DNA of 64,000 nucleotides from Chloroflexota bacterium (GCA_965249595.1 OZ252242.1:1871850-1935849); one strand, 5' to 3'. Positions 26,443 to 40,040 are shown, counted from the stretch's first letter. Numbers and translations are program-made. The notes: generated by a model not told the origin, from the letters alone.

Positions 26443-28458
26443 TCATTTTCGGCTCCGCCGCCGGTCGAGCGAGTATTCCGGAGCATACGGTCGCCGATCG
26501 ACTAAAAGCTGGTATACGGCGCTGGACCCGCGGATTTCGGTTGGCACGGCCCCGAAGCCGTTGGGCAGGATCAGAAACGGCCGCGATTGCTCACCACCGG
26601 CGCCGCCGTGCACGCTGACCTGGTTTTCAAACGCAACCACCTGGCCGCTTTCGAGCTGAGCGCCGTTAACGATAAGGTCGCCGGAATTCGAATACGATGC
26701 CAGATTGCGGATCGAATCACGGAGCTGGCGAGGATAAGCGGCGAGCGGGTCGGAGCCGTTGAGGGCGTCAGCCGATAGATTTATCATGCCGGCGGCGCCC
26801 TGAACCAGAACCTCGCCGGCCCGATTGCGAGTGATCACAAAATCGATCCCGGGATGATTGGCCAGGGTCGTGATCAATTCGGGGTAAAGATCGGCGATGT
26901 CCTCGACCGCCAATTGACCCGGTTGGCCGGTCAAATATATGTTGGCCAGGTTCCCAGACGGGCAAACGACGATGTCATCGGCGGAAACTTTGCGCAGGGC
27001 CGGTGCCAGCCCGGCCGCTGAGGCGGCCGCCGCGCCGCCCATTCGCTGCAGCAAAGACCGCATCGCAAAGCCCGCCGCGCGGGTTGATTCAGCGGCCGCG
27101 ATCGCCGAGTTGTGACCGGTCAATTCGAGTTCGCTCCGGTTGGTACGAATCCGCACCAACCGGGCGGCGCTGGTGACCAGCTCGGCGAGCGGGTATTCGA
27201 ACAGGCTCTCAAATGGGACGGCGGCGGTCTGTCCGTGGTCAGAGAGGATCACCATCGTGTATTCGCGCGGAGACGACTGGGCCGCCCGCCGCAGCCTGGC
27301 CAAGTGCCGGTCAAGGGTCTTTAGCGACCGCAGCGCGTTACTGCTGCGAGCTCCGCGGTAATGGGCAACCACGTCGTAGCCCACGTAAGTCATATATATC
27401 GCCGGAGTGCCATTGAAGAGTTCGCGGGTGGCAAAAAAGGTGGTCATCTCAGCGAACAGCACGGTGGTCACGGCCCGCTTTATCGGAAAGGTGAAATGCG
27501 CGCCGCCCGAACGCAGCAAGCGCAGTTCGGAAACCGTGGAGACCGCAACTTCAAAGATCATTTCCACGAGCAGGCGGAAAAAGCTGTGTGGGTTTTGGAA
27601 GAACAAAAACGCAGTTTCAAGCTGTTCGCGCATCCGATTTCTGGCTTTTACTTCGCTGGCCGTGGCCAACGCGGTGCTGGCCCCGCCACCTAAGAGATTG
27701 GCGATGCTGGTGCCGCCGCGGAGCAGGGCTCGCGGATGGTCCCGCTGGCGGGCGATGGCCGCCGCGTCGTCGACGTCGGAAGATTCGATCATTCGCCCGG
27801 CCGATTTGTCATACCAGCGAAAACCCGGGATTTCGCTCTCGTCGCCATAGAGGATTCCGGCCTGTGAGGACGATGTTTGAGTCGGCAGTTCGCACCACCA
27901 TTCGCGCACCTCAAATTGCCGGCCCAGTAACCATCGGCGCAGATTTGGCATCCGCCGCGCCTCCACCGCTTCGCGCAGTATTGGTGCCGCCAATCCATCG
28001 ATCTCAACCATCAACAGACCCGGTCCGACCAGCTCCGCATCAGTGGTGCGGGCGGTCAGGCGATGGGCAAAGTAGTAGGAAAAATCATCGTCATCGTCCT
28101 TGAGCGAGAGCACCGTGGCCAGGCTATGGACGACCGTGCTGGCCAGGGCCAGCAGCAGCACGGTACCGATTTCGGCCGGCGGTTGTCCGGGAACCCAATC
28201 TATCGCGACGTTTATGACAACGGCATTTAACACCAGCGACCAGAGGCCCAGCGTTCCGATCACCAGCGGCAGGGTGAATATCAATAGCAGCGGCCGCAGC
28301 AGAATATTGCCCAGCACGATCGCCGCCGCCAACTTCAGGCCCTGCTCCAGATCGGCGACTGAAAATCCGGGCAACAGGAAGGACATCAGTTCCAATGCGC
28401 CCAGCTGCAGGGCAATGACAAATACCGTCTGCCGCAGTACCCGGCCCAGCCGCGGCAT
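26443..28458 (-). CDS. Membrane protein: YvlD/phage-holin-like N-terminus fused to an alkaline-phosphatase-superfamily domain
   Basis: Four N-terminal TM helices (TLGLWSLVLNA), then EIDGL, TQTSSSQAGIL, YDVVAH, LSDHGQ and HGG metal-ligand motifs. Confidence 0.75.
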   Translation of the reverse strand: MPRLGRVLRQTVFVIALQLGALELMSFLLPGFSVADLEQGLKLAAAIVLGNILLRPLLLIFTLPLVIGTLGLWSLVLNAVVINVAIDWVPGQPPAEIGTVLLLALASTVVHSLATVLSLKDDDDDFSYYFAHRLTARTTDAELVGPGLLMVEIDGLAAPILREAVEARRMPNLRRWLLGRQFEVREWWCELPTQTSSSQAGILYGDESEIPGFRWYDKSAGRMIESSDVDDAAAIARQRDHPRALLRGGTSIANLLGGGASTALATASEVKARNRMREQLETAFLFFQNPHSFFRLLVEMIFEVAVSTVSELRLLRSGGAHFTFPIKRAVTTVLFAEMTTFFATRELFNGTPAIYMTYVGYDVVAHYRGARSSNALRSLKTLDRHLARLRRAAQSSPREYTMVILSDHGQTAAVPFESLFEYPLAELVTSAARLVRIRTNRSELELTGHNSAIAAAESTRAAGFAMRSLLQRMGGAAAASAAGLAPALRKVSADDIVVCPSGNLANIYLTGQPGQLAVEDIADLYPELITTLANHPGIDFVITRNRAGEVLVQGAAGMINLSADALNGSDPLAAYPRQLRDSIRNLASYSNSGDLIVNGAQLESGQVVAFENQVSVHGGAGGEQSRPFLILPNGFGAVPTEIRGSSAVYQLLVDRRPYAPEYSLDRRRSRK

Positions 28459-28461
28459 TTA

Positions 28462-29217
28462 TCAAACCCTCAATTTGCTGTTGGAACCGGGCGGGAGCAC
28501 CGCCAGATCAACTCCGGGCGCCAATTCGGCCAAGGCCGACCGGAATTTAGCGACCGGATCCCGATCCGCGGACGCCGCTCGTGGAAGCCAACGCTGCCGA
28601 TAGGCGCCCCAGTGGATAGGGATCACCCAACGCGGTTTCAGCTGGGCGGCGGCCCGGGCTGCCGAGCGGGGATTTAGATGTCCGCGGCCAACCGCGGCGC
28701 CCCAACCGGAAATTGGCAAAAAGGCAAGATCCAATCGTGTCGGCGATGGGCGCATTGACTCGAAGTAATCGGTGTCGCCGGCAAAGTAAAGCGTGCGCGA
28801 ACCCTTTATTTCATACGCCAGGGCCTCGCCGTGCGGACCCATAGGAACCCGTTCGCCGGGATGGACGACCGGGAGGGCCGCTATCGTCAGCCCGAAGCAT
28901 TCGATGCTGTTGCCGATCCCGATCTCGACTGACGGCAGGCCATGCCGGTGGAGAAAATCGCCGGTTCCGGCAGGGGCTATTACCAACGGTCGGCCAGGGA
29001 TGCGCTTTAGTGTCCAGGGGTCGCAATGATCGTGATGCAGGTGCGAAATCAAAACGATGTCGACTGCCGGCAATCGGGCCGGATTCACCTGTGGACAGAT
29101 CCGATCAATGGTCTGGAATAGGCGGCGGCGCAGCAGGGGGTCGGTGAGTATGACGGCGCCGTCAATCTCAATCAGGCAGGTCGCATGGCCCGGATGCGAG
29201 ACCTGACAGCCAGTCAT
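28462..29217 (-). CDS. Metallo-beta-lactamase-fold hydrolase (UlaG/RomA-like)
   Basis: GHAT, LTDP, ISHLHHDH (HxHxDH), FAGDT and PIHWG motifs. Confidence 0.9.
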   Translation of the reverse strand: MTGCQVSHPGHATCLIEIDGAVILTDPLLRRRLFQTIDRICPQVNPARLPAVDIVLISHLHHDHCDPWTLKRIPGRPLVIAPAGTGDFLHRHGLPSVEIGIGNSIECFGLTIAALPVVHPGERVPMGPHGEALAYEIKGSRTLYFAGDTDYFESMRPSPTRLDLAFLPISGWGAAVGRGHLNPRSAARAAAQLKPRWVIPIHWGAYRQRWLPRAASADRDPVAKFRSALAELAPGVDLAVLPPGSNSKLRV

Positions 29218-29285
29218 GGGTTAGGTGCTCTTGCACCCATACTGGGGACGGCGATCAATGATGCCTTGGGCCAGTCGGTGGGCCC

Positions 29286-29317
29286 GGGCCGCGCAACCAG
29301 TGTGCGCGGCCCTTTTT
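29286..29317. terminator. Hairpin downstream of binding-protein copy A (repeated at 31104-31135)
   Basis: GGGCCGCGCA/TGCGCGGCCC 10-bp stem followed by TTTTT on the + strand. Confidence 0.55.
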
Positions 29318-29343
29318 CAAGCGGAGTTATTCCGCCATAAGTC

Positions 29344-30825
29344 CTAGAGGTAGCCGCCCGAGGCTGGCGGGAATGTCCGCTCGGTCGGCTCATCAACTTC
29401 CAGAGCTCGATCGATAGCGGCCTGGGCTTCTTCGTTATATCGCGGTGCAGCTTCACGCGGATCGGCGTTGCCAAGGATGACGGCTTCCTGGAGCTTGGCA
29501 TAGGAAGTCCAGACTTCAGCTGTTGCCGGTCCGTAGTAGAACGCAAACGAGTTCTTTTGGCCGTCAATGAACGGTTGCACTCCCGGAATCGACCGCCGGT
29601 AGGCACTGTAGACGACCGAGTCGCGGAACGAGAAGCGTGGCGGAATTTGGCCGAACGCCGTGCACCAGATCGAGTCGTTTTCAGGGTCGTTACCAATGAA
29701 ATTGGTAAAGTGCCAGCCACCTTCAGAGTTCCTGCCGCCAGCGGGCAACTGCAATGCACCATAACCGATCGGGTTCAGGTTGGAAATCGGGCCGGCCGGC
29801 AGCAGGGCAACGCGCCCAACTTCCACGCCCAGGTTCTGAACGGCATTCTGCAGGCGCGACGGGTAGGCGCCGTAATGGCCCAGCAGGCCGGTGCCAAAGT
29901 CGTTCGTCTGCGAGGTTTCGTCGGCAGCCTTGAATTGGAGTGTTTCAGCATCCACGAACCTGGCCACCCAATCAAAATAATTGATCATTTCGGGGCTGTC
30001 CAGGATGGCCTTGGTTCCGGATTCGTCGACACCGAAGGCGCCGAAGCGGAAAAACCAACCGGTAGAAAGGTTTCCGGTGCCGGTATTGGGCTTGGTCGTC
30101 AGTGACATCCCGGTCACCTCGTCGCCAACCAAGTGAACCCTTGATGCGTTTTCGAACAGCTCTTCGGTCGTCGCCGGCGGAACGTCGGGGTCCAGACCAG
30201 CGGCTCGGTACAGGTCGGCGTTGTAATAAAGCGACATCGTACCGCTGTTGACCGGCATCGCCCACATCTTGCCGCGCCAGGTGATCGACTCGGTAATCGA
30301 CGGGACAAAATCAAAGCTCTGGATGTCCGGTTCGAACTGGTCCAACTCGTGCATGACGCCGCGGCGGAAGAACGCGTTAATCAGAATGGATCCACCAACG
30401 CGAACGACGTCGGGCGGATTGCCACCGGCGATTGCGGCGGTCAGCTTGACGGTCAATTCGTTGTTTGGAACAAGAATCGGGTCCAGCCGGTAGGCGCTTT
30501 GCTGGCGGTGATAGTGGCCGACAACATGCTTTTCAAAGTTTGCTTGCTGGGTGGCCTGGTTGAACCATACGTTGGTGACTTGGGTCACCGGTTGAGCAGC
30601 CTCGCCCTCGACCAAGATCGTCACGACCCTCGTCTCGCCGGCTTCGCCCGGAACCTCAACGGTTACTACCTTGGGTTCGGAGGGAACCTCGACGGTCACT
30701 ACCCTTTCGACAACCTCGGTTACTACCTCGGGGTCGCCACAGCCGGCCAGGGCGGCCGTTGTCGCTAGTCCGGCAGCACCCACCGCGGACACCCGCAGGG
30801 CTGTCCGGCGGCTTACTTTCCGCAT
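29344..30825 (-). CDS. CUT1-type sugar ABC substrate-binding lipoprotein, copy A
   Basis: Tat-like SRRTAL, lipobox LAGC, GNPPD, MPVNS and LYYNADLYRAAGLDP; ATG at 30825 with GGAAGG (GTG at 30840 also possible). Confidence 0.9.
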   Translation of the reverse strand: MRKVSRRTALRVSAVGAAGLATTAALAGCGDPEVVTEVVERVVTVEVPSEPKVVTVEVPGEAGETRVVTILVEGEAAQPVTQVTNVWFNQATQQANFEKHVVGHYHRQQSAYRLDPILVPNNELTVKLTAAIAGGNPPDVVRVGGSILINAFFRRGVMHELDQFEPDIQSFDFVPSITESITWRGKMWAMPVNSGTMSLYYNADLYRAAGLDPDVPPATTEELFENASRVHLVGDEVTGMSLTTKPNTGTGNLSTGWFFRFGAFGVDESGTKAILDSPEMINYFDWVARFVDAETLQFKAADETSQTNDFGTGLLGHYGAYPSRLQNAVQNLGVEVGRVALLPAGPISNLNPIGYGALQLPAGGRNSEGGWHFTNFIGNDPENDSIWCTAFGQIPPRFSFRDSVVYSAYRRSIPGVQPFIDGQKNSFAFYYGPATAEVWTSYAKLQEAVILGNADPREAAPRYNEEAQAAIDRALEVDEPTERTFPPASGGYL

Positions 30826-30887
30826 GCTTTTTCCTTCCACTTAGTGCGCCAGCAACTAACTCGCGCCAATTGTCAAAATAACACGCC

Positions 30888-30908
30888 TTTAAGGACATGA
30901 CCCTTAAA
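30888..30908. promoter_or_regulatory. Candidate operator upstream of copy A (identical at 32706-32726)
   Basis: TTTAAGG-N7-CCTTAAA perfect inverted repeat, 12 bp from a minus-strand TTGACA at 30871-30876. Confidence 0.55.
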
Positions 30909-30948
30909 TTCCGTGCTTCCAATATTAATGGCGGCCGGGCCGCCGACG

Positions 30949-31035
30949 CTAAAGGGCGTCGGTAAATACGACGGCGCCGTCAATCTCAATCAGGCAGGTC
31001 GCATGGCCCGGATGCGAGACCTGACAGCCAGTCAT
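30949..31035 (-). pseudogene. Chimeric 28-codon remnant at the duplication junction (MBL-gene 5' end joined to the transketolase 3' end)
   Basis: Reads MTGCQVSHPGHATCLIEIDGAVVFTDAL*: the MBL N-terminus followed by the DAL* end of the transketolase C subunit. Confidence 0.8.
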
Positions 31036-31161
31036 GGGTTAGGTGCTCTTGCACCCATACTGGGGACGGCGATCAATGATGCCTTGGGCCAGTCGGTGGG
31101 CCCGGGCCGCGCAACCAGTGTGCGCGGCCCTTTTTCAAGCGGAGTTATTCCGCCATAAGTC

Positions 31162-32643
31162 CTAGAGGTAGCCGCCCGAGGATGGCGGGAATGTCCGCTC
31201 GGTCGGCTCATCATCTTCCAGAGCTCGATCGATAGCGGCCTGGGCTTCTTCGTTATATCGCGGTGCAGCTTCACGCGGATCGGCGTTGCCAAGGATGACG
31301 GCTTCCTGGAGCTTGCCAAAGGAAGTCCAGACTTCAGCTGTTGCCGGTCCGTAGTAGAACGCAAACGAGTTCTTTTGGCCGTCAATGAACGGTTGCACTC
31401 CCGGAATCGACCGCCGGTAGGCACTGTAGACGACCGAGTCGCGGAACGAGAAGCGTGGCGGAATTTGGCCGAACGCCGTGCACCAGATCGAGTCGTTTTC
31501 AGGGTCGTTACCAATGAAATTGGTAAAGTGCCAGCCACCTTCAGAGTTCCTGCCGCCAACCGGCAACTGCAGGACCCCAACACCAATCGGGTTCAGGTTG
31601 GAAATCGGGCCGGCCGGCAGCAGGGCAACGCGCCCAACTTCCACGCCCAGGTTCTGAACGGCATTCTGCAGGCGCGACGGGTAGGCGGCGTAATGGCCCA
31701 GCAGGCCGGTGCCAAAGTCGTTCGTCTGCGAGGTTTCGTCGGCGGACTTGAACTGGAGTATTTCGGCATCCACGAACCTGGCCACCCAATCAAAATAGTT
31801 GAGCATTTCGGGGCTGTCCAGGAGAGCCTTGGTTCCGGATTCGTCGACACCGAAGGCGCCGTGGCGAAAGAATAATCCGGAAGAGGTGTTTCCAGTGCCC
31901 AAATTGGGCTTGGTCGGCAGCGACATCCCGGTGACCTCGTCGCCAACCGAATCAATCTTCTGCGAGTTCACAAAGAGCTCTTCGGTCGTCGCCGGCGGGG
32001 AGTCGGGGTCCAGACCAGCGGCTCGGTACAGGTCGGCGTTGTAATAAAGCGACATCGTACCGCTGTTGACCGGCATCGCCCACATCTTGCCGCGCCAGGT
32101 GAGTGCCTGGGTAATCGACGGGACAAAATCAAAGCTCTGGATGTCCGGTTCGAACTGGTCCAACTCGTGCATGACGCCGCGGCGGAAGAACGCGTTAGAC
32201 AGGGTAATTCCACCAACGCGAACGGCGTCGGGCGGATTGCCACCGGCGATTGCGGCGGTCAGCTTGACGGTCAATTCGTTGTTTGGAACAAGAATCGGGT
32301 CCAGCCGGTAGGCGCTTTGCTGGCGGTGATAGTGGCCGACAACATGCTTTTCAAAGTTTGCTTGCTGGGTGGCCTGGTTGAACCATACGTTGGTGACTTG
32401 GGTCACCGGTTGAGCAGCCTCGCCCTCGACCAAGATCGTCACGACCCTCGTCTCGCCGGCTTCGCCCGGAACCTCAACGGTTACTACCTTGGGTTCGGAG
32501 GGAACCTCGACGGTCACTACCCTTTCGACAACCTCGGTTACTACCTCGGGGTCGCCACAGCCGGCCAGGGCGGCCGTTGTCGCTAGTCCGGCAGCACCCA
32601 CCGCGGACACCCGCAGGGCTGTCCGGCGGCTTACTTTCCGCAT
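31162..32643 (-). CDS. CUT1-type sugar ABC substrate-binding lipoprotein, copy B
   Basis: Paralog of copy A with about 33 amino-acid differences by manual count. Confidence 0.9.
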   Translation of the reverse strand: MRKVSRRTALRVSAVGAAGLATTAALAGCGDPEVVTEVVERVVTVEVPSEPKVVTVEVPGEAGETRVVTILVEGEAAQPVTQVTNVWFNQATQQANFEKHVVGHYHRQQSAYRLDPILVPNNELTVKLTAAIAGGNPPDAVRVGGITLSNAFFRRGVMHELDQFEPDIQSFDFVPSITQALTWRGKMWAMPVNSGTMSLYYNADLYRAAGLDPDSPPATTEELFVNSQKIDSVGDEVTGMSLPTKPNLGTGNTSSGLFFRHGAFGVDESGTKALLDSPEMLNYFDWVARFVDAEILQFKSADETSQTNDFGTGLLGHYAAYPSRLQNAVQNLGVEVGRVALLPAGPISNLNPIGVGVLQLPVGGRNSEGGWHFTNFIGNDPENDSIWCTAFGQIPPRFSFRDSVVYSAYRRSIPGVQPFIDGQKNSFAFYYGPATAEVWTSFGKLQEAVILGNADPREAAPRYNEEAQAAIDRALEDDEPTERTFPPSSGGYL

Positions 32644-32766
32644 GCTTTTTCCTTCCACTTAGTGCGCCAGCAACTAACTCGCGCCAATTGTCAAAATAAC
32701 ACGCCTTTAAGGACATGACCCTTAAATTCCGTGCTTCCAATATTAATGGCGGCCGGGCCGCCGACG

Positions 32767-33786
32767 CTAAAGGGCGTCGGATCGATAGTCCGCTCGCGTC
32801 GACTCAAAACCGACCTGCGCCAGGTCGCCATCGGCAATACCCAACCTGTCGCCCACCAATTGCTCGGCCGCCCGGACCAGCGCCAACCCATCCATGTTGT
32901 GGAGGCGCAGCAGGTAGTCCGGATTGGCCCCGTGGGCATACGTATCCTTTAGGCCCAGGCGCACCAATTTGGAGCCGAGCCCTTCGGCGGCGATGGTTTC
33001 GGCGACCGCTGTCCCCAGCCCACCGACCGTTAGATGGTTCTCCAGGGTGATCACCCCCAGGCGGCCGCGCCCGATCGATTCGGCGATCTGGGGATCGTCA
33101 AACGGCTTTAGGGTCGAGACGTGGACGTGTTCTACCGAAAGCCCGCGCTGCCGCAATAAGGTAACCGCGCGGATCGCATGCTCGGTGACGAGTCCAGATG
33201 AAACAACGGTCAGGTCTTCGCCACGTTCGAGCACTCGAACACGGTCAATGACGAACGGTTCCGATTCAGGGAAGAGGCGCGGGATGCGGCCACGGTTCAT
33301 CCGCGCGTAAACCGGGCCCGGATGTTGGTAGATCGCCTCCAGTACGGTTTCGATTTCGGTGGCGTCTCCGGCGTCGATGACCGTCATGTTGGGCAGCGGG
33401 CGCATCAACGCCACATCATCGATCGCGTGGTGGGTGGCCCCGCCGGGGGAGATGATGCCCGGCAAAAACCCCAATATCTTGACCGGCGTGTTCGGGTAGG
33501 CAACCGCCATCTCGATCTGGTCCATCACCCGACGGGTGGCAAATACACCAAAAGTGTGAACGAATGGGACAAGCCCCTCGCGGGCCATTCCGCCGGCGAA
33601 TCCGATCATGTTCTGTTCGGCCATCCCCATTGAGATACACCGCTGGGGGAACTGTTCGCGGAACAACCCCAGTTCGCAGGGCCGCGTAAGGTCGGCAGTG
33701 AGCGCATAGACGTCGCTGTGGCGCTCGGCAAAACGCGGGAAATTGTGATGGTGCGGCCGTACGACATAGTGTCCGTTTGTAATCAT
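32767..33786 (-). CDS. Split transketolase, C-terminal subunit
   Basis: TADL, GMAEQNMIG, GGATHHA, VYARMNR and LENHLTVGGLG motifs. Confidence 0.9.
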   Translation of the reverse strand: MITNGHYVVRPHHHNFPRFAERHSDVYALTADLTRPCELGLFREQFPQRCISMGMAEQNMIGFAGGMAREGLVPFVHTFGVFATRRVMDQIEMAVAYPNTPVKILGFLPGIISPGGATHHAIDDVALMRPLPNMTVIDAGDATEIETVLEAIYQHPGPVYARMNRGRIPRLFPESEPFVIDRVRVLERGEDLTVVSSGLVTEHAIRAVTLLRQRGLSVEHVHVSTLKPFDDPQIAESIGRGRLGVITLENHLTVGGLGTAVAETIAAEGLGSKLVRLGLKDTYAHGANPDYLLRLHNMDGLALVRAAEQLVGDRLGIADGDLAQVGFESTRADYRSDAL

Positions 33787-34736
33787 GCCGCTTGCGCCTT
33801 AAGGATGGAGAGGCGCCGTTCGAAGGCGGTCTGCTCTTCGGGGTCGGAAAAGATCACGTAGTGCAATTCGGGCAGCCGCGGGGCCATTTCCGGTATGCCG
33901 CGCATCGGGTCGGTACGGGCGATGACGAATAAAGTTTGGCCCGGGCTGTGGGATTGCGGAATGGCCAAAAGGGCATCTATATCATTCCCGTCAATCTCAA
34001 GCACCCGCGCGCCGAAGGCGTCCAGGCGTCCCGCGATTGGCTCGGTGCGCATGACACTATCCAGCAGGCCATCGACCTGTTGCCCGTTGGCGTCGATGAT
34101 TACCGTGAGGTTGTCTAAGTCGTGAAAGGCGCAGGCCGCGACGGCCTCCCAGGTTTGACCTTCCTGCAATTCGCCATCGGACATGAACAGCCAGGTACGA
34201 CCGCTTTCGCCCTTGACCCGCCGGGCAAAAGCAATACCGGCGGCCTGTGAGAGCGATTGCCCAAAGGATCCCGAAGTTATCGCGATTCCCGGCGAATGCT
34301 CGGCCCCAATTCGCTCCATAACCGCCCCATCTTCCTCAACCTGCGAGAGGGCTGCCGGCGAGAGCCGCCCGACCTCGACCAGCGCCGAATAGAGGGCGAG
34401 CGAGTAGTGGGTGGGCGAGAAGATGAAGCGATCCAGGTCCGGGGCGCGCGGTCCGTTGTAGCGGTCGCCGTCAAAGTGATCGGGGTTGTGAGCCGATGGC
34501 ACGCCCGAAAACGGGGGCGGCAGGGCCGGCGCAACCGAGGGTCCCAACTGCATCAGGCGGGTGTAGAGAGTCGCCAGTATCTCGGCCGATGAACAGCTCT
34601 GGGAAAGGTAACCGCCTCCCAGTTGCAATGAGCTTTCCAGGGTGTGAATCCGGATGCCCAGTGCCACTCGAGCCGGGTCGAGGCTCCCGGGTTCGATGGC
34701 CGCAGCGTGCATCTGCTCGCCGTTGCGGTCGTTCAT
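33783..34736 (-). CDS. Split transketolase, N-terminal (ThDP-binding) subunit
   Basis: DRFIFSPTH, GSFGQS and SDGELQEGQTWEA...DAN; ATGA overlap with the C subunit. Confidence 0.88.
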   Translation of the reverse strand: MNDRNGEQMHAAAIEPGSLDPARVALGIRIHTLESSLQLGGGYLSQSCSSAEILATLYTRLMQLGPSVAPALPPPFSGVPSAHNPDHFDGDRYNGPRAPDLDRFIFSPTHYSLALYSALVEVGRLSPAALSQVEEDGAVMERIGAEHSPGIAITSGSFGQSLSQAAGIAFARRVKGESGRTWLFMSDGELQEGQTWEAVAACAFHDLDNLTVIIDANGQQVDGLLDSVMRTEPIAGRLDAFGARVLEIDGNDIDALLAIPQSHSPGQTLFVIARTDPMRGIPEMAPRLPELHYVIFSDPEEQTAFERRLSILKAQAA

Positions 34737-34759
34737 TATTTGTCCAATCCCAGGTTGGG

Positions 34760-34832
34760 AGCCCACATCCGGAATTGAACCGGAGACCTCATTCTTACCA
34801 AGAATGCGCTCTTCCTACTGAGCTATGTGGGC
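34760..34832 (-). tRNA. tRNA-Thr(GGT)
   Basis: GCCCACA acceptor, CATTC-TT GGT AA-GAATG anticodon arm, TTCAATT T-loop. Confidence 0.95.
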
Positions 34833-34929: not shown

Positions 34930-35075
34930 CTACAAGGAGAGGCCCCAGTCGGACCCCCGTTTAACGGGGGCCACGAGCGGGGAATGCGGTTCGATTCCGC
35001 AGCGGACGCGCCACCGTGATTGACCGGGTGCTGGGACTGCCAGCTTCCGTCATGAGCCGGGCTACCGGGCCGGGG
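34930..35075 (+). ncRNA. Cobalamin riboswitch
   Basis: GGGAA-TGCGG TTCGATT CCGCA, GCCACCGTGA and GAGCCGGGCTACC match the B12-element core; lies upstream of btuFCD. Boundaries approximate. Confidence 0.85.
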
Positions 35076-35209
35076 TCTTCGCCCAAACGCCGTTCGCGCA
35101 AGCAATCTAGACATTTTTTTCAGATCTCGACGGCCGGGCGCGCCGGCGGCGTTGGCGTGCTCGTCGCCAGGGCTGCAACATGCAAACCCTCCTTCAACCT
35201 CTCTAGGCC

Positions 35210-36151
35210 ATCGCCGGTCGAACGGCATTTCTGCTGACGCTGGCCGGATTTTTGCTAATGGCCTGTTCACCATTCGCCGACCCGGACGATTCAGCGGGTC
35301 AGGGCGAGACAGTCGATTCAACCGGCAAGACCGTTACGGCCCCGCGCGCGCCCGATCGACTGATCTCGCTGGCCCCGTCGGCAACCGAGTTGCTGGTGCT
35401 GCTCAACGCCGGCGAGCTATTGGTCGGAGTCGATGATTACAGTCCGCTTGAGGGCCTCTCCGGCGAAGTCGCCAGGGTTGGGACCTTTCCACCGGATTAC
35501 GAACTGATCGCCAGCTTGGACCCCGATCTGATCATCGGAGCGTTCATTACCCCGGCGGAGCATGTCGACCGCCTGGAATCACTCGGCTTTCCGGTCTTTA
35601 TTGCCGACAGCCGTTCGGTTGAGGGAATTCCGGCAGCCTTAGAGGCCTTGGCCGGCGCAGTGGACCGGGAAGACGCCTACGCCGAGATCGCCGATTCGTT
35701 CAACGACCGAATGGCGGCAATCGCCGACGCCTCGTCAACCGACGGCGACGCGCCGACCATCTATTGGGAGATAGACGCTACCGACCCGGCGCGGCCATTT
35801 GTGGCCGGCCCGGGCTCGCTGGCCAACGACGTTATTCGTTTGGCTGGCGGCGTGAACGTTTTCGCCGATCTGACCGATCCATATCCACAGGTATCGCTTG
35901 AAGCGGTGTTGGCCCGCAATCCCGACCTGATCGTCCTCGGCAACGCCCCCTGGGGCGAGAGCATCGCCACCCTGGGCGGGCGCCCCGGTTGGGCTAGCCT
36001 GCGAGCGATTTCCAATCGCCAGGTCTTGGAGCTGTCCGAATCGCAGGCCGATGCCGCATCCCGGGCCACGCCGGCGATGCTTGACCTGATCGAATACATG
36101 GCCGATTCACTCTCAGCGGCGCAGGTCAAATCATTACCCGCCGCGGCCTGA
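35210..36151 (+). CDS. btuF: Cobalamin/iron-siderophore ABC substrate-binding lipoprotein
   Basis: RLISLAPSATE, LVGVDDYS, LDPDL and EAVLARNPD; lipobox LMAC. Start unresolved because of an in-frame TAG at 35204. Confidence 0.8.
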   Translation: MAGRTAFLLTLAGFLLMACSPFADPDDSAGQGETVDSTGKTVTAPRAPDRLISLAPSATELLVLLNAGELLVGVDDYSPLEGLSGEVARVGTFPPDYELIASLDPDLIIGAFITPAEHVDRLESLGFPVFIADSRSVEGIPAALEALAGAVDREDAYAEIADSFNDRMAAIADASSTDGDAPTIYWEIDATDPARPFVAGPGSLANDVIRLAGGVNVFADLTDPYPQVSLEAVLARNPDLIVLGNAPWGESIATLGGRPGWASLRAISNRQVLELSESQADAASRATPAMLDLIEYMADSLSAAQVKSLPAAA

Positions 36152-37176
36152 TTCTCCCGGCCGCTGCCGCGGCAGCGCTGGTTGCAACGGCGCTGGCGGT
36201 CGCATTTGGCTCGGTTGAATTAGACATCGAAGCCCTGGTCAACGGCTTAGGGATTACCAGCGGCGAACCCGCCGGAGAAGCAGATGCCCGAATCAACAGC
36301 CAGATCCTGCTGCAGATCCGCCTGCCACGGGTAATTGCCGGACTATTGGTGGGCGCCGCGCTGGCCGCGGCCGGGGTCATTTACCAAGGACTGCTTCGAA
36401 ATCCGCTGGCCGATCCTTTTGTGATCGGCGCCTCCGGCGGGGCCGCATTGGGGATCGTGGGTGGTCATTTGCTGCTGGCACTCCTTATCGTGCCGGCCGC
36501 ATTGGGGAGCACGGTCATACCACTGCTGGGGTTCCTCGGCGCCCTGGCCGCGGTCTGGCTGGTCTACCTGCTGGCCAGCGGTCGCCACCAGGTAACGTCC
36601 AGCTCGTTGGTGCTGACCGGATTTGCCATCGGCTCCCTCCTGGGCGCCGCCAATTTCCTGTTGCTGCTCACCGCCCAACCCCTGCGCGAGCGACTGCTTG
36701 AACACTTGAGCTGGATGCTCGGCGGGGTCAAGGTCGTCGGCTGGGCGCCCTTGGTCGTTACCGCTCCGCCCCTGCTGGTGGCTTTGCTGGCGGCCATCCT
36801 GCTGGCCCGTCAACTCGATTACCTGGCCCTGGGGCCGGCCGGGGCAGCTCGCCTGGGGGTCAACATTGCCCACGCTCGGGCCTTGTTTATCGTGCTGGCC
36901 TCACTGCTCACCGCCCTGGCCGTGAGCCTGTCGGGAATCGTGGCCCTGGTCGGGCTCTTGGTGCCCCACGCCGTCCGTCTGCTCATCGGTCCGGCCAACC
37001 GGATGCTGCTCCCAACCAGCGCCCTGGCCGGTGGGGCCTATTTGGTCTTAATCGATTTGATGGCTCGATTCATTTGGCGGCCGACCGAGCTGCCGGTGGG
37101 GATCCTGGCCGCATTGCTGGGAGCCCCGGCCTTGGTTTGGCTTCTCCGGCGGGCTGGTGGATCTTATGACTTCTAG
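36133..37176 (+). CDS. btuC: BtuC/FecCD-family ABC permease
   Basis: IRLPRV, GLLRNPLADP and SLSGIVALVGLLVPH; hydrophobic frame open back to 36085, likely non-canonical start near 36133. Confidence 0.85.
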   Translation: MTRRGLILPAAAAAALVATALAVAFGSVELDIEALVNGLGITSGEPAGEADARINSQILLQIRLPRVIAGLLVGAALAAAGVIYQGLLRNPLADPFVIGASGGAALGIVGGHLLLALLIVPAALGSTVIPLLGFLGALAAVWLVYLLASGRHQVTSSSLVLTGFAIGSLLGAANFLLLLTAQPLRERLLEHLSWMLGGVKVVGWAPLVVTAPPLLVALLAAILLARQLDYLALGPAGAARLGVNIAHARALFIVLASLLTALAVSLSGIVALVGLLVPHAVRLLIGPANRMLLPTSALAGGAYLVLIDLMARFIWRPTELPVGILAALLGAPALVWLLRRAGGSYDF

Positions 37177-37954
37177 GCAGTTGGCCATTTCCGTCAAAGG
37201 GATGCGCACCAAACGCGGGCAATTTGAGCTTGCCGTTCCCAATTTGTCGGTTGCCTTCGGACAGCTGACGGTCTTGGTTGGACCCAATGGTTCGGGAAAG
37301 TCCACGCTGCTCAGGTCCATCGATGGCACCGTGGCCACCGATGGCCACATCGAGTTGGCCGGGCTGCCGGTCGCCGACATCTCCAACCGGCAACGGGCAC
37401 GCCTATTGGCGGCCGTGCCGCAAGAATTTGCGGTGCCGTTCGCCTACAGCGCCCGACAACTGGTCGCCTTTGGACGGGCACCCCATCTGGGGTTGCTTGG
37501 GCAGCTGGGCGCGCAAGACCGGGTTGCCGTCGACGCAGCCCTTTCGACATGCGACCTTGTCTGCTTCGCCGATCGGCCGGTCGGCGATCTGTCCGGCGGC
37601 CAGCGTCGCCGGGTCGCCCTGGCGATGGCCCTGGCTCAGCAAACCCCGATTTTGCTGGTCGATGAGCCCACTGCCCATCTAGACATCGGTCGGGCGCGCT
37701 GGTGCTGGCAGCAACTGGCCGAATTCGCTGCTGCTGGCGGGGCCGTTCTGGCGGCGGCCCACGACTTGGCCGCGGCCGCGGTTTGGGCGGACCGCCTGGT
37801 GCTGCTCAGCGCGGGACAGATCAAAGCGCAAGGAACTCCGACACGGGTCCTCACAGCGGCCAACTTGCGCTCGGTGTTTAAGGTCGATGCCACCTTCGAC
37901 GCGCCCGCTGGCCAACTGATCGTCGGCGATGGCGGGCGATCAACTACGAGTTGA
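37157..37954 (+). CDS. btuD: BtuD/FepC-family ABC ATPase
   Basis: GPNGSGKS, LSGGQ, DEPTAHLD and H-loop motifs. Confidence 0.9.
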   Translation: MDLMTSRQLAISVKGMRTKRGQFELAVPNLSVAFGQLTVLVGPNGSGKSTLLRSIDGTVATDGHIELAGLPVADISNRQRARLLAAVPQEFAVPFAYSARQLVAFGRAPHLGLLGQLGAQDRVAVDAALSTCDLVCFADRPVGDLSGGQRRRVALAMALAQQTPILLVDEPTAHLDIGRARWCWQQLAEFAAAGGAVLAAAHDLAAAAVWADRLVLLSAGQIKAQGTPTRVLTAANLRSVFKVDATFDAPAGQLIVGDGGRSTTS

Positions 37955-39985
37955 AAATTCGGATTCAGAGACCCCGCTGGTGCCGTTGACTACAAAACTG
38001 ACCGTAAATCGATAGCGCGTCGATGGGTCGAGCGGCTCGTGCGGAACAAACGAGAGCGCCCGTCGCCATTGACTGGTCTGCATCGTTCCGGCGATATGGA
38101 CGCCATCGCTAACGCGCACCAAATTGGCCGAATTCCAGACCACGGCATCGCCAACCCGCAATGCGGCGGTAATCGGATAGCCCAATGGACGTCGAATGCC
38201 CGGTGCCGGATCCGGCGATTCAAATCCATCCCAGCTGGTGGGGATGTCACGTGCGCCATCGAAAGGGTGGATGCTGGCGGTAGGTGGTGAACCGGACCGG
38301 TCGGCCTGCAATCCGACGTTAAAGATCGTAACTACGATATTGCCGTCGCTGGCCGTGCCGTAACCCATGTGGACCGCCGATGGATGAAGGAACATGTAGC
38401 GGTGGTAGACGGTGTTAATCGCCCACTCCAAGGTGCGACTGGGAGTGAGCAACCCCGCCACTTCGTCGATCCAATTGAGCTCGTAGCCGGCTGATTTGGC
38501 CCGGTCGAAGATCGTTACCCCCGAATAGTGGGTCAGGCCCGGAATTTCATTGTGGAAATCTCCGCGGTTGGTGATCCAATACTGGGCATGGCTGCTGGCC
38601 GCGGCATTGAGCGGGCCCGAATGCTCAAGATCGATCAGCCCCATCTGCCGGCGCAGCCCGTTGACACGGTCAAGCAGGGCGGCGTCGAGTTCGCTGGGCG
38701 GTTGGAGCGGATCGGGTTGGATGGCTGATATCTCTCCAAGATAGGCAGCCGCCACCCAGCCACCCAATTCCAGCTCGCGCCAGTTGATGCCATCGGCTAG
38801 CACGACAGGTCCAATTACGGTGAGTACCCGCTGGTGCTGGGCGCGTCCGATTACGGTGGCCGAAATAGACGGAAGAGCGCGGATGTTTAAGACGCCGTCG
38901 GGCGTGTTCACCTGCCATTGTTCGCCAGTTACCGGCGTTGCGGTCGGCGTTGCGGTGGGGACCACGGTCGGTTCGACCACCGGGCTGGTACCCGAATCCC
39001 CCGGGTCGGCCGCCAGGTACTGACCGACGACCCATCGGTCACCACCGACCAGTTGCACCCAGGCAAATCCGTCGACATTGACCGTAAGACCGGTCGGAAA
39101 TACTTCCCCTCCGTCGTCAACCGTGTCGACGATTGCGGCGGTGACCGTGGGGCCGGCCCGCACATTCACGTGCGAACCCGGAGTTGCGGCGAACCAGCGG
39201 CCGGCGCCGTACTCCGTTGGCGGCAGTTCGATCGGGTCGGTTGGAGCCTGGGTAGTCGGGATTTGCCCCGGTAGATGGGGTTGGGTTGCCGTTAGCGGAA
39301 AAAGCCCCAGCTGCTTGGCCAAATCGCCCCCGTTGGCCACGGTGACCGTACCGGCCGCCGCCCAAGGGCGATCGCTGGTCCAAAGTTGCAGGACCGCCCG
39401 CTGCAGGCGAATCGCCAATAGCCCTTCGTAAATTTGAACGCTGGATGTCGGCAGGCCATACCAACGCAGGTAGTCGCCTGCCTGAAAGTACGCGTCGGCA
39501 AGTTCCGGAACCCTCGACAACAGCTCGGTGCGACGGGCAATGATCTGGCTCCATACCAGGCCGGCTTCGTTGAATTGTTCCTGCTCCGGGACCAGCAGAT
39601 CGGCCAACGCCTGGTCGTAGCCAAACCGCGACAGGTCATCAAAAACGTTGATAAATACCGTGGTTTGAGAGTCTGGCCGCCATTGAAAAACGGCCTTTTG
39701 CATCGCCTGGGTGACGAATCCATTCCATATAAAGCGGCGTGAAACCGGATAACCCACCGCTTGCACCCCACCGCTGTCGACAAATGCTTGCCAGAAGCGG
39801 GCCTCTCCATCGTCGATGACCGCGTAGCCGTCGAGAGGATCGGCGGTGTCGCCGCCGGTCTGGGTGAAAAACCAACCACCAGCGATCGCGTAGTCTCCGC
39901 TCTGGGCGTCAACCCCGGCCGGCCAGGCCAAAGTCGCCAGCAGTACCAAAAGGGCCGCCAACTGACGCCAAGCTGGCAGCCTCAA
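37940..39985 (-). CDS. Secreted multidomain protein: LGFP-like, two SH3b, CAP/SCP and an Ig-like C-terminus
   Basis: Signal peptide ending VDA-Q; VGYPVSRRF; VNVRAGP and LNIRALP; VNGLRRQMGL...LNAAASSHA; likely TTG start at 39985. Confidence 0.7.
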   Translation of the reverse strand: MRLPAWRQLAALLVLLATLAWPAGVDAQSGDYAIAGGWFFTQTGGDTADPLDGYAVIDDGEARFWQAFVDSGGVQAVGYPVSRRFIWNGFVTQAMQKAVFQWRPDSQTTVFINVFDDLSRFGYDQALADLLVPEQEQFNEAGLVWSQIIARRTELLSRVPELADAYFQAGDYLRWYGLPTSSVQIYEGLLAIRLQRAVLQLWTSDRPWAAAGTVTVANGGDLAKQLGLFPLTATQPHLPGQIPTTQAPTDPIELPPTEYGAGRWFAATPGSHVNVRAGPTVTAAIVDTVDDGGEVFPTGLTVNVDGFAWVQLVGGDRWVVGQYLAADPGDSGTSPVVEPTVVPTATPTATPVTGEQWQVNTPDGVLNIRALPSISATVIGRAQHQRVLTVIGPVVLADGINWRELELGGWVAAAYLGEISAIQPDPLQPPSELDAALLDRVNGLRRQMGLIDLEHSGPLNAAASSHAQYWITNRGDFHNEIPGLTHYSGVTIFDRAKSAGYELNWIDEVAGLLTPSRTLEWAINTVYHRYMFLHPSAVHMGYGTASDGNIVVTIFNVGLQADRSGSPPTASIHPFDGARDIPTSWDGFESPDPAPGIRRPLGYPITAALRVGDAVVWNSANLVRVSDGVHIAGTMQTSQWRRALSFVPHEPLDPSTRYRFTVSFVVNGTSGVSESEFSTRS

Positions 39986-40040
39986 AACAAAATTGGTCGT
40001 CTTGATTGGAATCCGGCCACGGCCGACGGATAGGGCACCG

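What the first reader, a model, noticed from the sequence alone, without database searches (positions are those of the whole stretch)
29344..32658. Tandem sugar-binding paralogs with mosaic divergence
Seen: two 498-codon frames 1,818 bp apart. About 555 bp covering the upstream region, signal and linker (30408-30962 vs 32226-32780) and other long blocks look base-identical, including synonymous and non-coding sites. About 33 residue changes cluster in short tracts that also carry synonymous changes: GSILIN/GITLSN, ESI/QAL, ENASRVHL/VNSQKIDS, TGTGNLSTGW/LGTGNTSSGL, YGA/VGV and YA/FG. Several remove aromatic residues (W>L, Y>V, F>H). Established: aromatic residues stack sugars in CUT1 binding proteins. 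Inference: ongoing gene conversion homogenises the scaffold while ligand-determining patches stay distinct or are imported from other paralogs, which would shuffle specificity cassette-style.
Basis: partly seen in the sequence, partly recalled or inferred. Interest (0 to 1): 0.72.

Follow-up and report, generated by a model that had tools for sequence, protein, structure and literature searches.

The report
Tandem binding-protein genes homogenised by gene conversion
Two neighbouring copies of a nutrient-binding lipoprotein gene in a sponge-associated Chloroflexota bacterium keep overwriting each other by gene conversion, leaving islands of old divergence; this is a clear but ordinary case of concerted evolution, and nothing shows that it shuffles ligand specificity.

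Summary
Two 498-codon ORFs lie 1,818 bp apart in a head-to-tail duplication (about 29138-32780). They differ at 70 nt and 33 residues, the differences are tightly clustered, and one 555-bp run is identical.

The mosaic is real. Three independent long-contig assemblies and short-read contigs from the same sample show the same pair and the same junction.

Gene conversion is supported. In 322 scaffold codons dN = dS = 0. In 74 tract codons dS is about 0.8, as between old unhomogenised paralogs in a sister species.

Strains only about 0.1% apart in flanking DNA differ by whole tracts that carry the other copy's sequence. One strain about 1% apart has both copies almost fully homogenised.

- Only about 8 of 33 changes lie near positions equivalent to MalE or UgpB ligand contacts.
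- The largest patch maps to an outer helix.
- dN/dS is about 0.36.
- No donor for any patch was found.
- Neither tract exchanged inside the genes lies near a mapped ligand-contact position.

Verdict: a new member of a known kind (concerted evolution of tandem paralogs). Interest is moderate to low.

The parts
29138..30955 (.). Repeat unit A (period 1,818 bp). It holds the first ~80 nt of the metallo-beta-lactamase-fold (MBL) gene, the intergenic DNA, binding-protein gene A and 122 nt upstream of it.
   Evidence: Offset-1818 identity plot and boundary alignment.
30956..32780 (.). Repeat unit B. Its last 14 nt overlap the 3' end of the transketolase C-terminal-subunit gene.
29344..30840 (-). Gene A, a solute-binding lipoprotein. 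The ORF starts at a GTG; the likely start is the ATG at 30825, giving 493 aa. It has an RR export motif, an LAGC lipobox (Cys34) and a disordered V/E/T-rich linker up to residue 83.
   Evidence: Pfam SBP_bac_8 1.3e-20 and SBP_bac_1 2.1e-15. AF2 model pLDDT 81.9, with residues 1-83 below 50. Cys34 is invariant in the family alignment.
31162..32658 (-). Gene B, the upstream paralog in the direction of transcription. The likely start is the ATG at 32643.
   Evidence: It equals database protein P0032.
30408..30962 (.). A 555-bp block identical to 32226-32780. It covers codons 1-144 and all upstream DNA to the repeat edge. It includes a substitution private to this strain (codon 105) that both copies carry.
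32698..32780 (-). The stretch upstream of gene B that is A-type in this strain. In strains L009, L010 and L013 the equivalent 83 bp is about 50% different from the stretch upstream of A. This marks an A-to-B conversion tract that reaches the end of the repeat.
   Evidence: Alignment of upstream regions and column table.
30379..30408 (-). Divergent tract, codons 145-154 (B copy 32197-32226). It aligns with the MalE 59-67 / UgpB E66 ligand-contact loop.
30283..30291 (-). Divergent tract, codons 184-186, ESI/QAL (B copy 32101-32109).
30043..30183 (-). Densest divergent region, codons 220-266 (B copy 31861-32001). A and B are about 69-73% identical at the nucleotide level here. Residues 230-237 align with an outer helix. 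Residues 248 and 253 flank the position equivalent to MalE E153/Y155 and UgpB W169/W172.
29926..30009 (-). Sparser divergent tract, codons 278-305 (B copy 31744-31827). At codons 286-287, strains L009 and L010 carry B-type sequence in their A copy.
29740..29769 (-). Divergent tract, codons 358-367, YGA/VGV (B copy 31558-31587). It aligns with the hinge-crossing strand, MalE 259-268.
29497..29502 (-). Codons 447-448, YA/FG (B copy 31315-31320). They align with MalE V343/R344, one helical turn after the conserved W444, which aligns with MalE W340 and UgpB R374.
29443..29460 (-). A B-to-A micro-conversion tract specific to the window strain (codons 461-466, ADPREAAP). Seven nt within 17 bp are B-type here but A-type in the A copies of L009, L010 and L011, and in the single, possibly chimeric copies on L012 and L013. 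A-type markers at 29498/29501 and 29396 bound the tract.
30956..31035 (-). Duplicated 5' fragment of the MBL-fold gene, lying between the two copies. It marks this duplication as a segmental event distinct from the arrays in sister species.
28462..29217 (-). Metallo-beta-lactamase-fold gene downstream of copy A. Its first ~80 nt belong to the repeat.
   Evidence: Pfam Lactamase_B_2 1.2e-26.
29286..29312 (.). GC-rich hairpin downstream of gene A. An identical copy lies at 31104-31130, downstream of gene B.
30930..30944 (-). Terminator-like hairpin upstream of gene A. An identical copy lies at 32748-32762, upstream of gene B and just past the transketolase stop codon.

Best explanation
These are two tandem paralogs of an exported, lipid-anchored ABC solute-binding protein (MalE/UgpB-like fold, ligand unknown). 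They sit in a conserved slot between a split transketolase and an MBL-fold hydrolase gene in a sponge-associated Chloroflexota bacterium. The pair evolves in concert. Homologous recombination between the copies (interlocus gene conversion, in both directions, with tracts from under 100 bp to over 550 bp) repeatedly overwrites one copy with the other, including synonymous sites, the promoter region and a pseudogene fragment. What remains different is a set of islands whose divergence (dS about 0.8, dN about 0.29) is as old as that between unhomogenised paralogs or between species. These islands coincide with the segments that vary most across the whole family, and some of them border the binding cleft.

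Shown: the mosaic itself, its statistical significance, its presence in independent assemblies, and conversion events that separate near-identical strains.

Inferred: that the two copies began as fully diverged genes (an old duplication, or an acquired homolog); that the islands persist through some mix of sequence divergence hindering recombination and selection for two binding specificities; and that both proteins serve an unlinked permease together with the MalK-like ATPase 21 kb away.
For: - Clustering. The longest identical run is 555 bp, against a maximum of 330 bp in 20,000 permutations. All synonymous differences lie in codons 145-367.
- Divergence contrast. The 322 non-tract codons have dN = dS = 0, while the 74 tract codons have dN 0.29 and dS 0.80. 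That matches the unhomogenised tandem pair L005_1/L005_2 (tract dN 0.315, dS 0.96; rest dN 0.076, dS 0.58).
- Constraint does not explain the identity. Segments where A and B are identical are only 73-90% identical to other species.
- Depth of divergence. Within the tracts A and B share 29 of 60 residues, fewer than either shares with other species (30-44 of 60).
- Strain comparison. Flanks of the window and L009 differ by 4 in 5,131 and 4 in 3,411 nt. Their A copies differ by 12 in 1,728 nt, and 9 of those lie in two tracts that carry B-type sequence (codons 461-466 in the window strain, codons 286-287 in L009/L010).
- Private changes shared between copies. A window-private change at codon 105 is in both copies. 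About 17 changes private to L011 are in both of its copies.
- Mixed ancestry in L011. Its copies are nearly identical and mostly A-type, yet both carry the 3-nt B-type codon 220.
- Promoter overwritten. The 83 bp upstream of B is about 50% different from that of A in L009/L010 but identical to it in the window.
- Real arrangement. Supported.
- Expression. Both copy-specific sequences occur in a sponge metatranscriptome.
Against: - The origin of the divergent islands is not resolved. An old duplication and an imported homolog give the same pattern.
- L009 and L010 are almost clonal with the window strain, so the persistence of the same islands in three assemblies is not independent evidence for selection.
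- L011 has only 2x coverage and its B copy is cut by the contig end.
- L012 (short-read scaffold) and L013 (a single scrambled copy with many indels) may be assembly chimeras and were not used as evidence.
- No model coordinates were available, so cleft proximity was judged only from alignments to proteins that are at most about 22% identical.
Confidence: 0.72

Rival explanations
1. Selection keeps the ligand-determining patches distinct against conversion, and swapping patches between copies or from other paralogs reshuffles specificity in the manner of cassettes.
For: - Patches 145-154, 248-253 and 447-448 border positions that contact ligand in MalE (D65, R66, E153, Y155, R344) and UgpB (E66, W169, W172, R374).
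- In UgpB a Trp/Leu difference in this region changes specificity (bioRxiv 10.1101/529602).
- Aromatic residues are lost in B at W262L, Y360V and F266H.
- Both copies appear to be transcribed.
- Copy number at this slot ranges from 1 to 3 among related species, which fits adaptive turnover.
Against: - Only about 8 of 33 changes lie within 3 residues of a contact-equivalent position, against 5.2 expected.
- The largest patch (230-237, 7 changes) and the patches at 279-305, 461-466, 482 and 493 align with outer helices or the tail.
- W262 aligns with UgpB L207 and MalE Y167, not with the contact tryptophans.
- dN/dS in the tracts is 0.36, no higher than for family orthologs.
- Strain L011 has lost nearly all islands.
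- Neither exchanged tract inside the genes lies near a mapped contact position.
- There is no third paralog in the window, no protein between 77% and 99% identity in 5.8 billion clusters, and the two B-patch peptides searched are absent from JGI metagenome contigs.
Confidence: 0.2
2. The duplication is recent and the copies began identical. Copy B (and partly A) later received DNA from a diverged homolog of another lineage by homologous recombination. Patchy mismatch repair then produced the mosaic, as in mosaic penicillin-binding-protein genes.
For: - Tract divergence equals between-species divergence.
- B-type motifs (TGNTSSG, PIGVG, ALTW) recur in one subgroup of other species (L004, P0005, P0007), and A-type ELFENASRVH recurs in another (L005_2, L006_2, P0014).
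- At the 30 alignable variable sites (31 in all), B shares more states than A with the 50%-identity outgroup (7-11 versus 4-6).
- The 192 bp of non-coding and pseudogene DNA downstream of each copy is identical in all strains, as a young duplication would predict.
Against: - No tract is closer than about 83% at the nucleotide level to any sampled relative, and most are 55-78%.
- No donor was found.
- Both copies carry derived states interleaved along the gene.
- At least eight separate short imports from a donor only 70-75% identical would be mechanistically hard.
- Exchange between A and B is directly seen among strains and is enough to make a mosaic from two diverged genes.
Confidence: 0.2
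3. The pair is an assembly artefact: two strain alleles of a single-copy gene were stitched in tandem, or a repeat was mis-resolved.
For: - The source is a metagenome-assembled genome.
- One related assembly (L013) shows a single scrambled copy, and a short-read scaffold (L012) is a hybrid.
Against: - The same B-then-A arrangement occurs on contigs of 2.06 Mb and 0.56 Mb from other assemblies, and a 40-kb contig (L011) carries a tandem pair at the same place whose copies are both largely A-type.
- The junction sequence (MBL fragment followed by the upstream region) exists only if the copies are adjacent. It is present as its own contig at about single-copy depth in short-read data from the same sample.
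- Shared repeat segments have about twice the flank depth in run X3.
Confidence: 0.02
4. Targeted hypermutation (a diversity-generating retroelement or similar), or plain uneven selective constraint, produced the clusters without any recombination.
For: The differences are clustered, and many codons carry 2-3 changes.
Against: - The substitution spectrum shows no adenine bias. Only 16 of 70 changes are from A and 23 from T, spread over all classes.
- Synonymous and non-coding sites are identical outside the tracts even though those segments vary 10-27% between species.
- Strain comparisons show whole tracts switching to the other copy's sequence.
Confidence: 0.01

Closest known systems
Concerted evolution of duplicated bacterial genes by gene conversion (tufA/tufB is the classic case; surveyed across prokaryotes in PMC6053082)
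   Same: - Paralogs within a genome are more alike than orthologs between species.
- Homogenisation includes synonymous sites.
- Conversion is recurrent and ongoing.
   Different: - The copies here are adjacent rather than dispersed.
- Homogenisation is incomplete and leaves islands at between-species divergence.
- The gene is an accessory transport component, not a core gene. No binding protein or ABC transporter is mentioned in that survey's main text.
Gene conversion between Helicobacter pylori outer-membrane adhesin paralogs (babA/babB, sabA/sabB), and conversion-driven diversity hotspots in M. tuberculosis antigen families (PMC13061034). The H. pylori case is cited from my own knowledge.
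   Same: Short tracts are exchanged between full-length expressed paralogs of a ligand-binding surface protein. This produces chimeras and makes the locus a diversity hotspot among otherwise near-identical strains. Here copy A differs at 0.69%, against 0.1% for the flanks.
   Different: No host-immune or adhesion context is known here. No functional switch has been shown, and neither exchanged tract inside the genes lies near a mapped ligand-contact position.
Silent-cassette variation systems (Neisseria pilE/pilS, Borrelia vlsE), cited from my own knowledge
   Same: Segmental, non-reciprocal transfer into an expressed gene.
   Different: There are no promoterless silent cassettes and no array of donors. 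Both copies are full length, have the same upstream region in this strain, and appear to be transcribed. Exchange runs in both directions.
E. coli MalE and UgpB, M. tuberculosis UgpB, and oligosaccharide-binding proteins of the same fold class (PDB 4aq4, 4mfi/6r1b, 5ysb, 9xf5)
   Same: - Pfam SBP_bac_1 and SBP_bac_8.
- Two-lobe fold with TM-score 0.81-0.86 normalised to the target.
- The profile matches E. coli UgpB with 99.1% probability.
- The Trp equivalent to MalE W340 is conserved (W444).
   Different: - At most about 22% identity to any solved structure, so the ligand cannot be read off.
- The protein is a lipoprotein with a roughly 50-residue disordered tether.
- No permease genes are adjacent.

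Membership tests
ABC solute-binding protein, MalE/UgpB-like (Pfam SBP_bac_1 / SBP_bac_8; CUT1-type) | Profile match above the curated threshold | tested here: met
   Copy A scores SBP_bac_8 74.8 bits (cut-off 27) and SBP_bac_1 58 bits (cut-off 26). Copy B scores 73.6 and 46.9 bits.
ABC solute-binding protein, MalE/UgpB-like (Pfam SBP_bac_1 / SBP_bac_8; CUT1-type) | Two-lobe periplasmic-binding-protein fold | tested here: met
   The AF2 model has pLDDT 81.9. Foldseek hits to more than 1,000 PDB chains of this class have E down to 1e-25 and target-normalised TM-scores of 0.81-0.86.
ABC solute-binding protein, MalE/UgpB-like (Pfam SBP_bac_1 / SBP_bac_8; CUT1-type) | Export signal (here a lipoprotein signal) | tested here: met
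   This was read from the sequence only: MRKVSRRTALR...LAGC, with Cys34 invariant in 26 relatives. No signal-peptide predictor was run.
ABC solute-binding protein, MalE/UgpB-like (Pfam SBP_bac_1 / SBP_bac_8; CUT1-type) | Genetic linkage to two CUT1 permease genes | tested here: not met
   The neighbours are a split transketolase, an MBL-fold protein, a phosphodiesterase and two SDRs, in all relatives as well. The 26 window ORFs scanned include no CUT1 permease. They do include a lone MalK-like ATPase at 53461-54582. The rest of the genome was not available.
ABC solute-binding protein, MalE/UgpB-like (Pfam SBP_bac_1 / SBP_bac_8; CUT1-type) | Binds a sugar | not testable with these tools
   The nearest folds bind oligosaccharides, glycerophosphodiesters, dinucleotides and sulfoquinovosyl glycerol.
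Interlocus gene conversion / concerted evolution of paralogs | Identical tracts longer than the number of differences allows by chance | tested here: met
   The longest run is 555 bp, against a permutation maximum of 330 bp in 20,000 trials.
Interlocus gene conversion / concerted evolution of paralogs | Silent sites are homogenised in some segments and deeply diverged in others | tested here: met
   dS is 0 over 322 codons plus non-coding DNA, against 0.80 over 74 codons.
Interlocus gene conversion / concerted evolution of paralogs | Lineage-private substitutions are shared by both copies of a genome | tested here: met
   The codon-105 T is in both window copies. About 17 sites private to L011 are in both L011 copies.
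Interlocus gene conversion / concerted evolution of paralogs | One strain's copy carries tracts with the other copy's sequence that sister strains lack | tested here: met
   Codons 461-466 in the window's A copy, codons 286-287 in the A copies of L009/L010, and the 83 bp upstream of B in the window strain.
Silent-cassette variation system | Promoterless donor cassettes feeding one expression site | tested here: not met
   There are only two copies. Both are full length with the same upstream DNA, and sequences specific to each occur in RNA-derived contigs.
Diversity-generating retroelement target | Differences confined to adenines of a template repeat | tested here: not met
   All 12 substitution classes are present, and only 16 of 70 changes are from A.

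The most novel reading that the evidence does not exclude
The islands near the cleft (145-154, 248-266, 358-367, 447-448) give A and B different ligand ranges and are held apart by selection. Frequent conversion then acts as a population-level switch, producing strains with two specificities (window, L009, L010) or one specificity at double dose (L011). That would tune nutrient capture by a sponge symbiont through recombination between tandem binding-protein genes that share an unlinked transporter.
Probability: 0.15. Interest if true: 0.6.

Novelty: new member of a known kind. Interest (0 to 1): 0.33.

Why it matters
The locus is a clean natural record of how fast interlocus gene conversion acts in an uncultured bacterium. 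Three conversion events, with tracts from under 100 bp to over 550 bp, occurred in the time the flanks accumulated about 0.1% divergence. One strain about 1% away is fully homogenised.

It carries a practical warning for analyses of metagenome-assembled genomes. Such loci look like strain-diversity hotspots or misassemblies, and short-read assemblers collapse them into chimeras (L012 may be one).

If the islands near the cleft do set specificity, the pair would offer a small natural set of chimeras for mapping what determines ligand choice in this binding-protein family. That has not been demonstrated.

Tried and rejected
- Third paralog or donor in the window: tblastn and blastn found nothing.
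- Donor search with a B fragment against the protein database: only two weak hits, so it was uninformative.
- Back-translated B-patch peptides against JGI metagenome contigs: zero hits twice. The species itself is probably absent from that collection, so this is weak negative evidence.
- Exact look-up of the 498-aa ORF product: it failed because public gene calls start at codon 6. The homolog search and cluster listing solved this.
- Mapping variable sites in three dimensions: model coordinates are not exposed and PDB chain sequences could not be fetched. The Lin1841 paper is not held.
- Aligning upstream regions with other species to polarise the A-type and B-type upstream versions: the sequences are too diverged to align.
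- Rfam scan of the locus: no RNA element in the upstream regions of the two genes.
- L012 and L013 as evidence for unequal crossing-over hybrids: set aside. L012 mixes B-type, A-type and L011-like states on a 1.6-kb short-read scaffold. L013 has 33 gaps and a displaced 66-bp piece only inside the repeat.
- Logan contigs: they pop variant bubbles, so they could confirm presence and the junction but could not phase the copies.

Full report
**What is there.** Two ORFs of 498 codons lie on the minus strand at 29344-30840 (copy A) and 31162-32658 (copy B). They belong to a head-to-tail duplication of period 1,818 bp. Its left edge is fuzzy at 29138-29152 and its right edge is sharp at 30962/32780. 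Each unit carries the last 14 nt of the upstream transketolase gene, a hairpin, about 120 nt of upstream DNA, the binding-protein gene, 126 nt of intergenic DNA with a GC-rich hairpin, and the first ~80 nt of the downstream MBL-fold gene. A dead 5' fragment of that gene therefore sits between the copies at 30956-31035. The real start is probably the ATG at codon 6, seven nt after GGAAGGA, because public gene calls give 493 aa.

The coding sequences differ at 70 nt, giving 33 residue changes, and 16 codons differ only synonymously. The 555-bp identical run is exact. No run longer than 330 bp appeared in 20,000 permutations, and 39 neighbouring differences lie within 3 nt of each other against 7.7 expected. 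All synonymous differences fall in codons 145-367 (dS 0.20 there, 0.44 in codons 220-306). None falls in the other roughly 206 synonymous sites. Constraint does not explain this, because the segments where A equals B are only 73-90% identical to orthologs in other species.

**It is not an artefact.**
- The window's proteins equal database entries P0036 (A) and P0032 (B) on a 2.10-Mb contig.
- Two other assemblies carry the same B-then-A pair on contigs of 2.06 Mb and 0.56 Mb, and a 40-kb contig (L011) carries a tandem pair at the same place whose copies are both largely A-type.
- Short-read contigs from the window's own sample match it 100%. They include a 67-nt contig across the A/B junction and both copy-specific 200-mers at about single-copy depth. 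In run X3 the shared segments have about twice the flank depth.

**What the genes are.** Both match Pfam SBP_bac_8 and SBP_bac_1. The N-terminus has an RR motif and an LAGC lipobox whose Cys is invariant in the family. A roughly 50-residue V/E/T-rich linker follows, which AlphaFold leaves disordered. Residues 84-498 fold with high confidence (pLDDT 81.9). The fold matches MalE/UgpB-class binding proteins with target-normalised TM-scores of 0.81-0.86 and at most 21% identity. These include binders of oligosaccharides, glycerophosphodiesters, dinucleotides and sulfoquinovosyl glycerol. 'Sugar-binding' is therefore a family-level guess.

**Genomic context.** No permease genes are adjacent. The neighbourhood reads: B12-type transporter, split transketolase, binding protein(s), MBL-fold protein, phosphodiesterase, two SDRs. 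A MalK-like ATPase sits alone 21 kb away. This slot is conserved in relatives that are 72-77% identical, and it holds one, two or three binding-protein genes depending on the species. In the sister clade the tandem copies are 84% identical and form clean orthologous groups across genomes, so they are not homogenised. Their spacers lack the MBL fragment, so the window's duplication is a separate event. The organism is a Chloroflexota MAG. RNA-derived contigs from a sponge metatranscriptome match an A-specific stretch (29488-29773) and a B-specific stretch (32061-32212).

**Evidence that gene conversion is operating now.** The column-by-column comparison of all copies, together with flank divergence, is the key result.
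- The flanks of the window strain and L009 differ at 4 of 5,131 and 4 of 3,411 nt (about 0.1%). Their A copies differ at 12 of 1,728 nt.
- Seven of those twelve lie within 17 bp (codons 461-466). There the window's A copy carries B-type sequence, while the A copies of L009, L010 and L011, and the single copies on L012 and L013, carry A-type. A-type markers bound the tract on both sides, so it is under about 100 bp.
- Two more (codons 286-287) are B-type in the A copies of L009 and L010.
- A substitution private to the window strain (codon 105) is present in both of its copies.
- In L009, L010 and L013 the 83 bp upstream of B is about 50% different from the equivalent stretch upstream of A. In the window the two are identical and A-type. 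The 555-bp identical block therefore reflects an A-to-B tract that ran to the very end of the repeat.
- Strain L011, about 1% diverged in the flanks, has two copies that are nearly identical to each other. They share about 17 private substitutions and are A-type at all major patches. Yet both carry the B-type 3-nt codon 220 and two other B-type sites. That is a homogenised mosaic of both ancestors.

**How old the islands are.** In the 74 tract codons A and B have dN 0.29 and dS 0.80. In the other 322 codons of the folded domain both values are zero. The unhomogenised pair L005_1/L005_2 has almost the same tract values (0.315 and 0.96) but also 0.076 and 0.58 elsewhere. At the protein level A and B share 29 of 60 tract residues, fewer than either shares with other species. 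Polarisation against 22 relatives is mixed. A keeps the common state at about 15 sites and B at about 10. Short A-type or B-type motifs recur in different subgroups of other species. The islands are therefore remnants of a divergence as deep as that between species. It arose either from an old duplication or from a foreign homolog placed in tandem. No tract is near-identical at the DNA level to any sampled relative, and no donor was found.

I then transferred known contact residues. For MalE these were D14, K15, W62, D65, R66, E111, E153, Y155, W230, W340, Y341 and R344 (established knowledge). For UgpB these were Y42, E66, W169, W172 and R374, with M. tuberculosis equivalents from bioRxiv 10.1101/529602.
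- The two references agree on contact-equivalent positions 96-97, 127-131, 147-153, 199-200, 249-252, 329 and 444-448.
- Patches 145-154, 248/253 and 447-448 border these positions.
- Only about 8 of 33 changed residues lie within 3 positions of a contact, against 5.2 expected.
- The largest patch (230-237) aligns with the outer helix of a beta-alpha-beta unit.
- W262 aligns with UgpB L207 and MalE Y167, about ten residues past the contact loop. It does not align with the Trp/Leu switch known in UgpB.
- dN/dS in the tracts (0.36) equals that of family orthologs in the same codons. Those codons evolve 2-4 times faster than the rest in every pair compared.
- The islands thus coincide with the family's generally variable segments. 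That fits specificity determinants, but it fits equally well a neutral barrier in which divergence hinders recombination.
- That barrier can be crossed, as shown by the overwritten 461-466 patch, the overwritten upstream region, and L011.

**Verdict.** The 'specificity cassette' half remains a hypothesis with weak support. The process is a known kind (concerted evolution of paralogs; PMC6053082, PMC13061034), seen here in a gene family and organism where it had not been described. I rate it a new member of a known kind with moderate to low interest.

Noticed in passing
window 34930-35087 (+), with 35252-37954: A cobalamin riboswitch (Rfam RF00174, 43.4 bits, E 1.4e-8) lies just upstream of a Peripla_BP_2 / FecCD / ABC_tran operon. 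This is probably a B12-regulated BtuFCD-like importer, divergent from the transketolase and binding-protein genes.
   Followed up: partly
window 34760-34832 (-): A tRNA gene (66.7 bits) overlaps the first codons of the long ORF 33783-34766 for the transketolase N-terminal subunit. The true start of that gene must lie further in. Public calls give 317 aa rather than 327.
   Followed up: partly
window 32767-34766 (-): The transketolase is split into separate N-terminal (TPP-binding) and C-terminal (pyrimidine-binding plus C-terminal domain) genes. The pair sits directly upstream of the binding-protein array in every relative examined.
   Followed up: no
window 26443-28458 (-): A 671-aa protein fuses an N-terminal four-helix 'phage holin 4_2' membrane domain to a type I phosphodiesterase / nucleotide pyrophosphatase domain. 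It is conserved downstream of the array, and in L011 it appears split into 456-aa and 156-aa genes.
   Followed up: no
window 53461-54582 (-): A MalK/MsiK-like ATPase (ABC_tran plus OB_MalK) has no permease or binding-protein gene beside it. It is a candidate shared energiser for unlinked CUT1-type systems such as A and B.
   Followed up: no
L003 4952-9623 and L004 467-1798; L005 10001-13215; L006 8278-11494; L001 and L002 at 10001: The same genomic slot holds 3, 2, 2, 1 and 1 binding-protein genes in related Chloroflexota MAGs. In L005 and L006 the two copies are 84% identical and orthologous across genomes, so they are not homogenised, unlike the window pair.
   Followed up: yes
L013 5140-7121: An assembly of a near-identical strain shows only one copy, which looks like a B-5'/A-3' hybrid. 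It has 33 gaps, a frameshift and a displaced 66-bp piece of the gene's 3' end, while its flanks are clean. It is either a collapsed repeat or a real unequal-crossover remnant.
   Followed up: partly
L012 1-1593: A short-read scaffold encodes a 493-aa hybrid (P0037) that mixes B-type, A-type and L011-like states. It is probably a chimera formed when the assembler collapsed the repeat across strains.
   Followed up: partly
L002 14435-16467: In this relative the first short-chain dehydrogenase gene downstream of the array is itself present twice in tandem, and both copies are about 75% identical to the window's gene.
   Followed up: no
window 37940-40159 (-): A 739-aa protein carries SH3_3 and CAP (cysteine-rich secretory protein) domains, which is unusual for a bacterial symbiont.
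   Followed up: no
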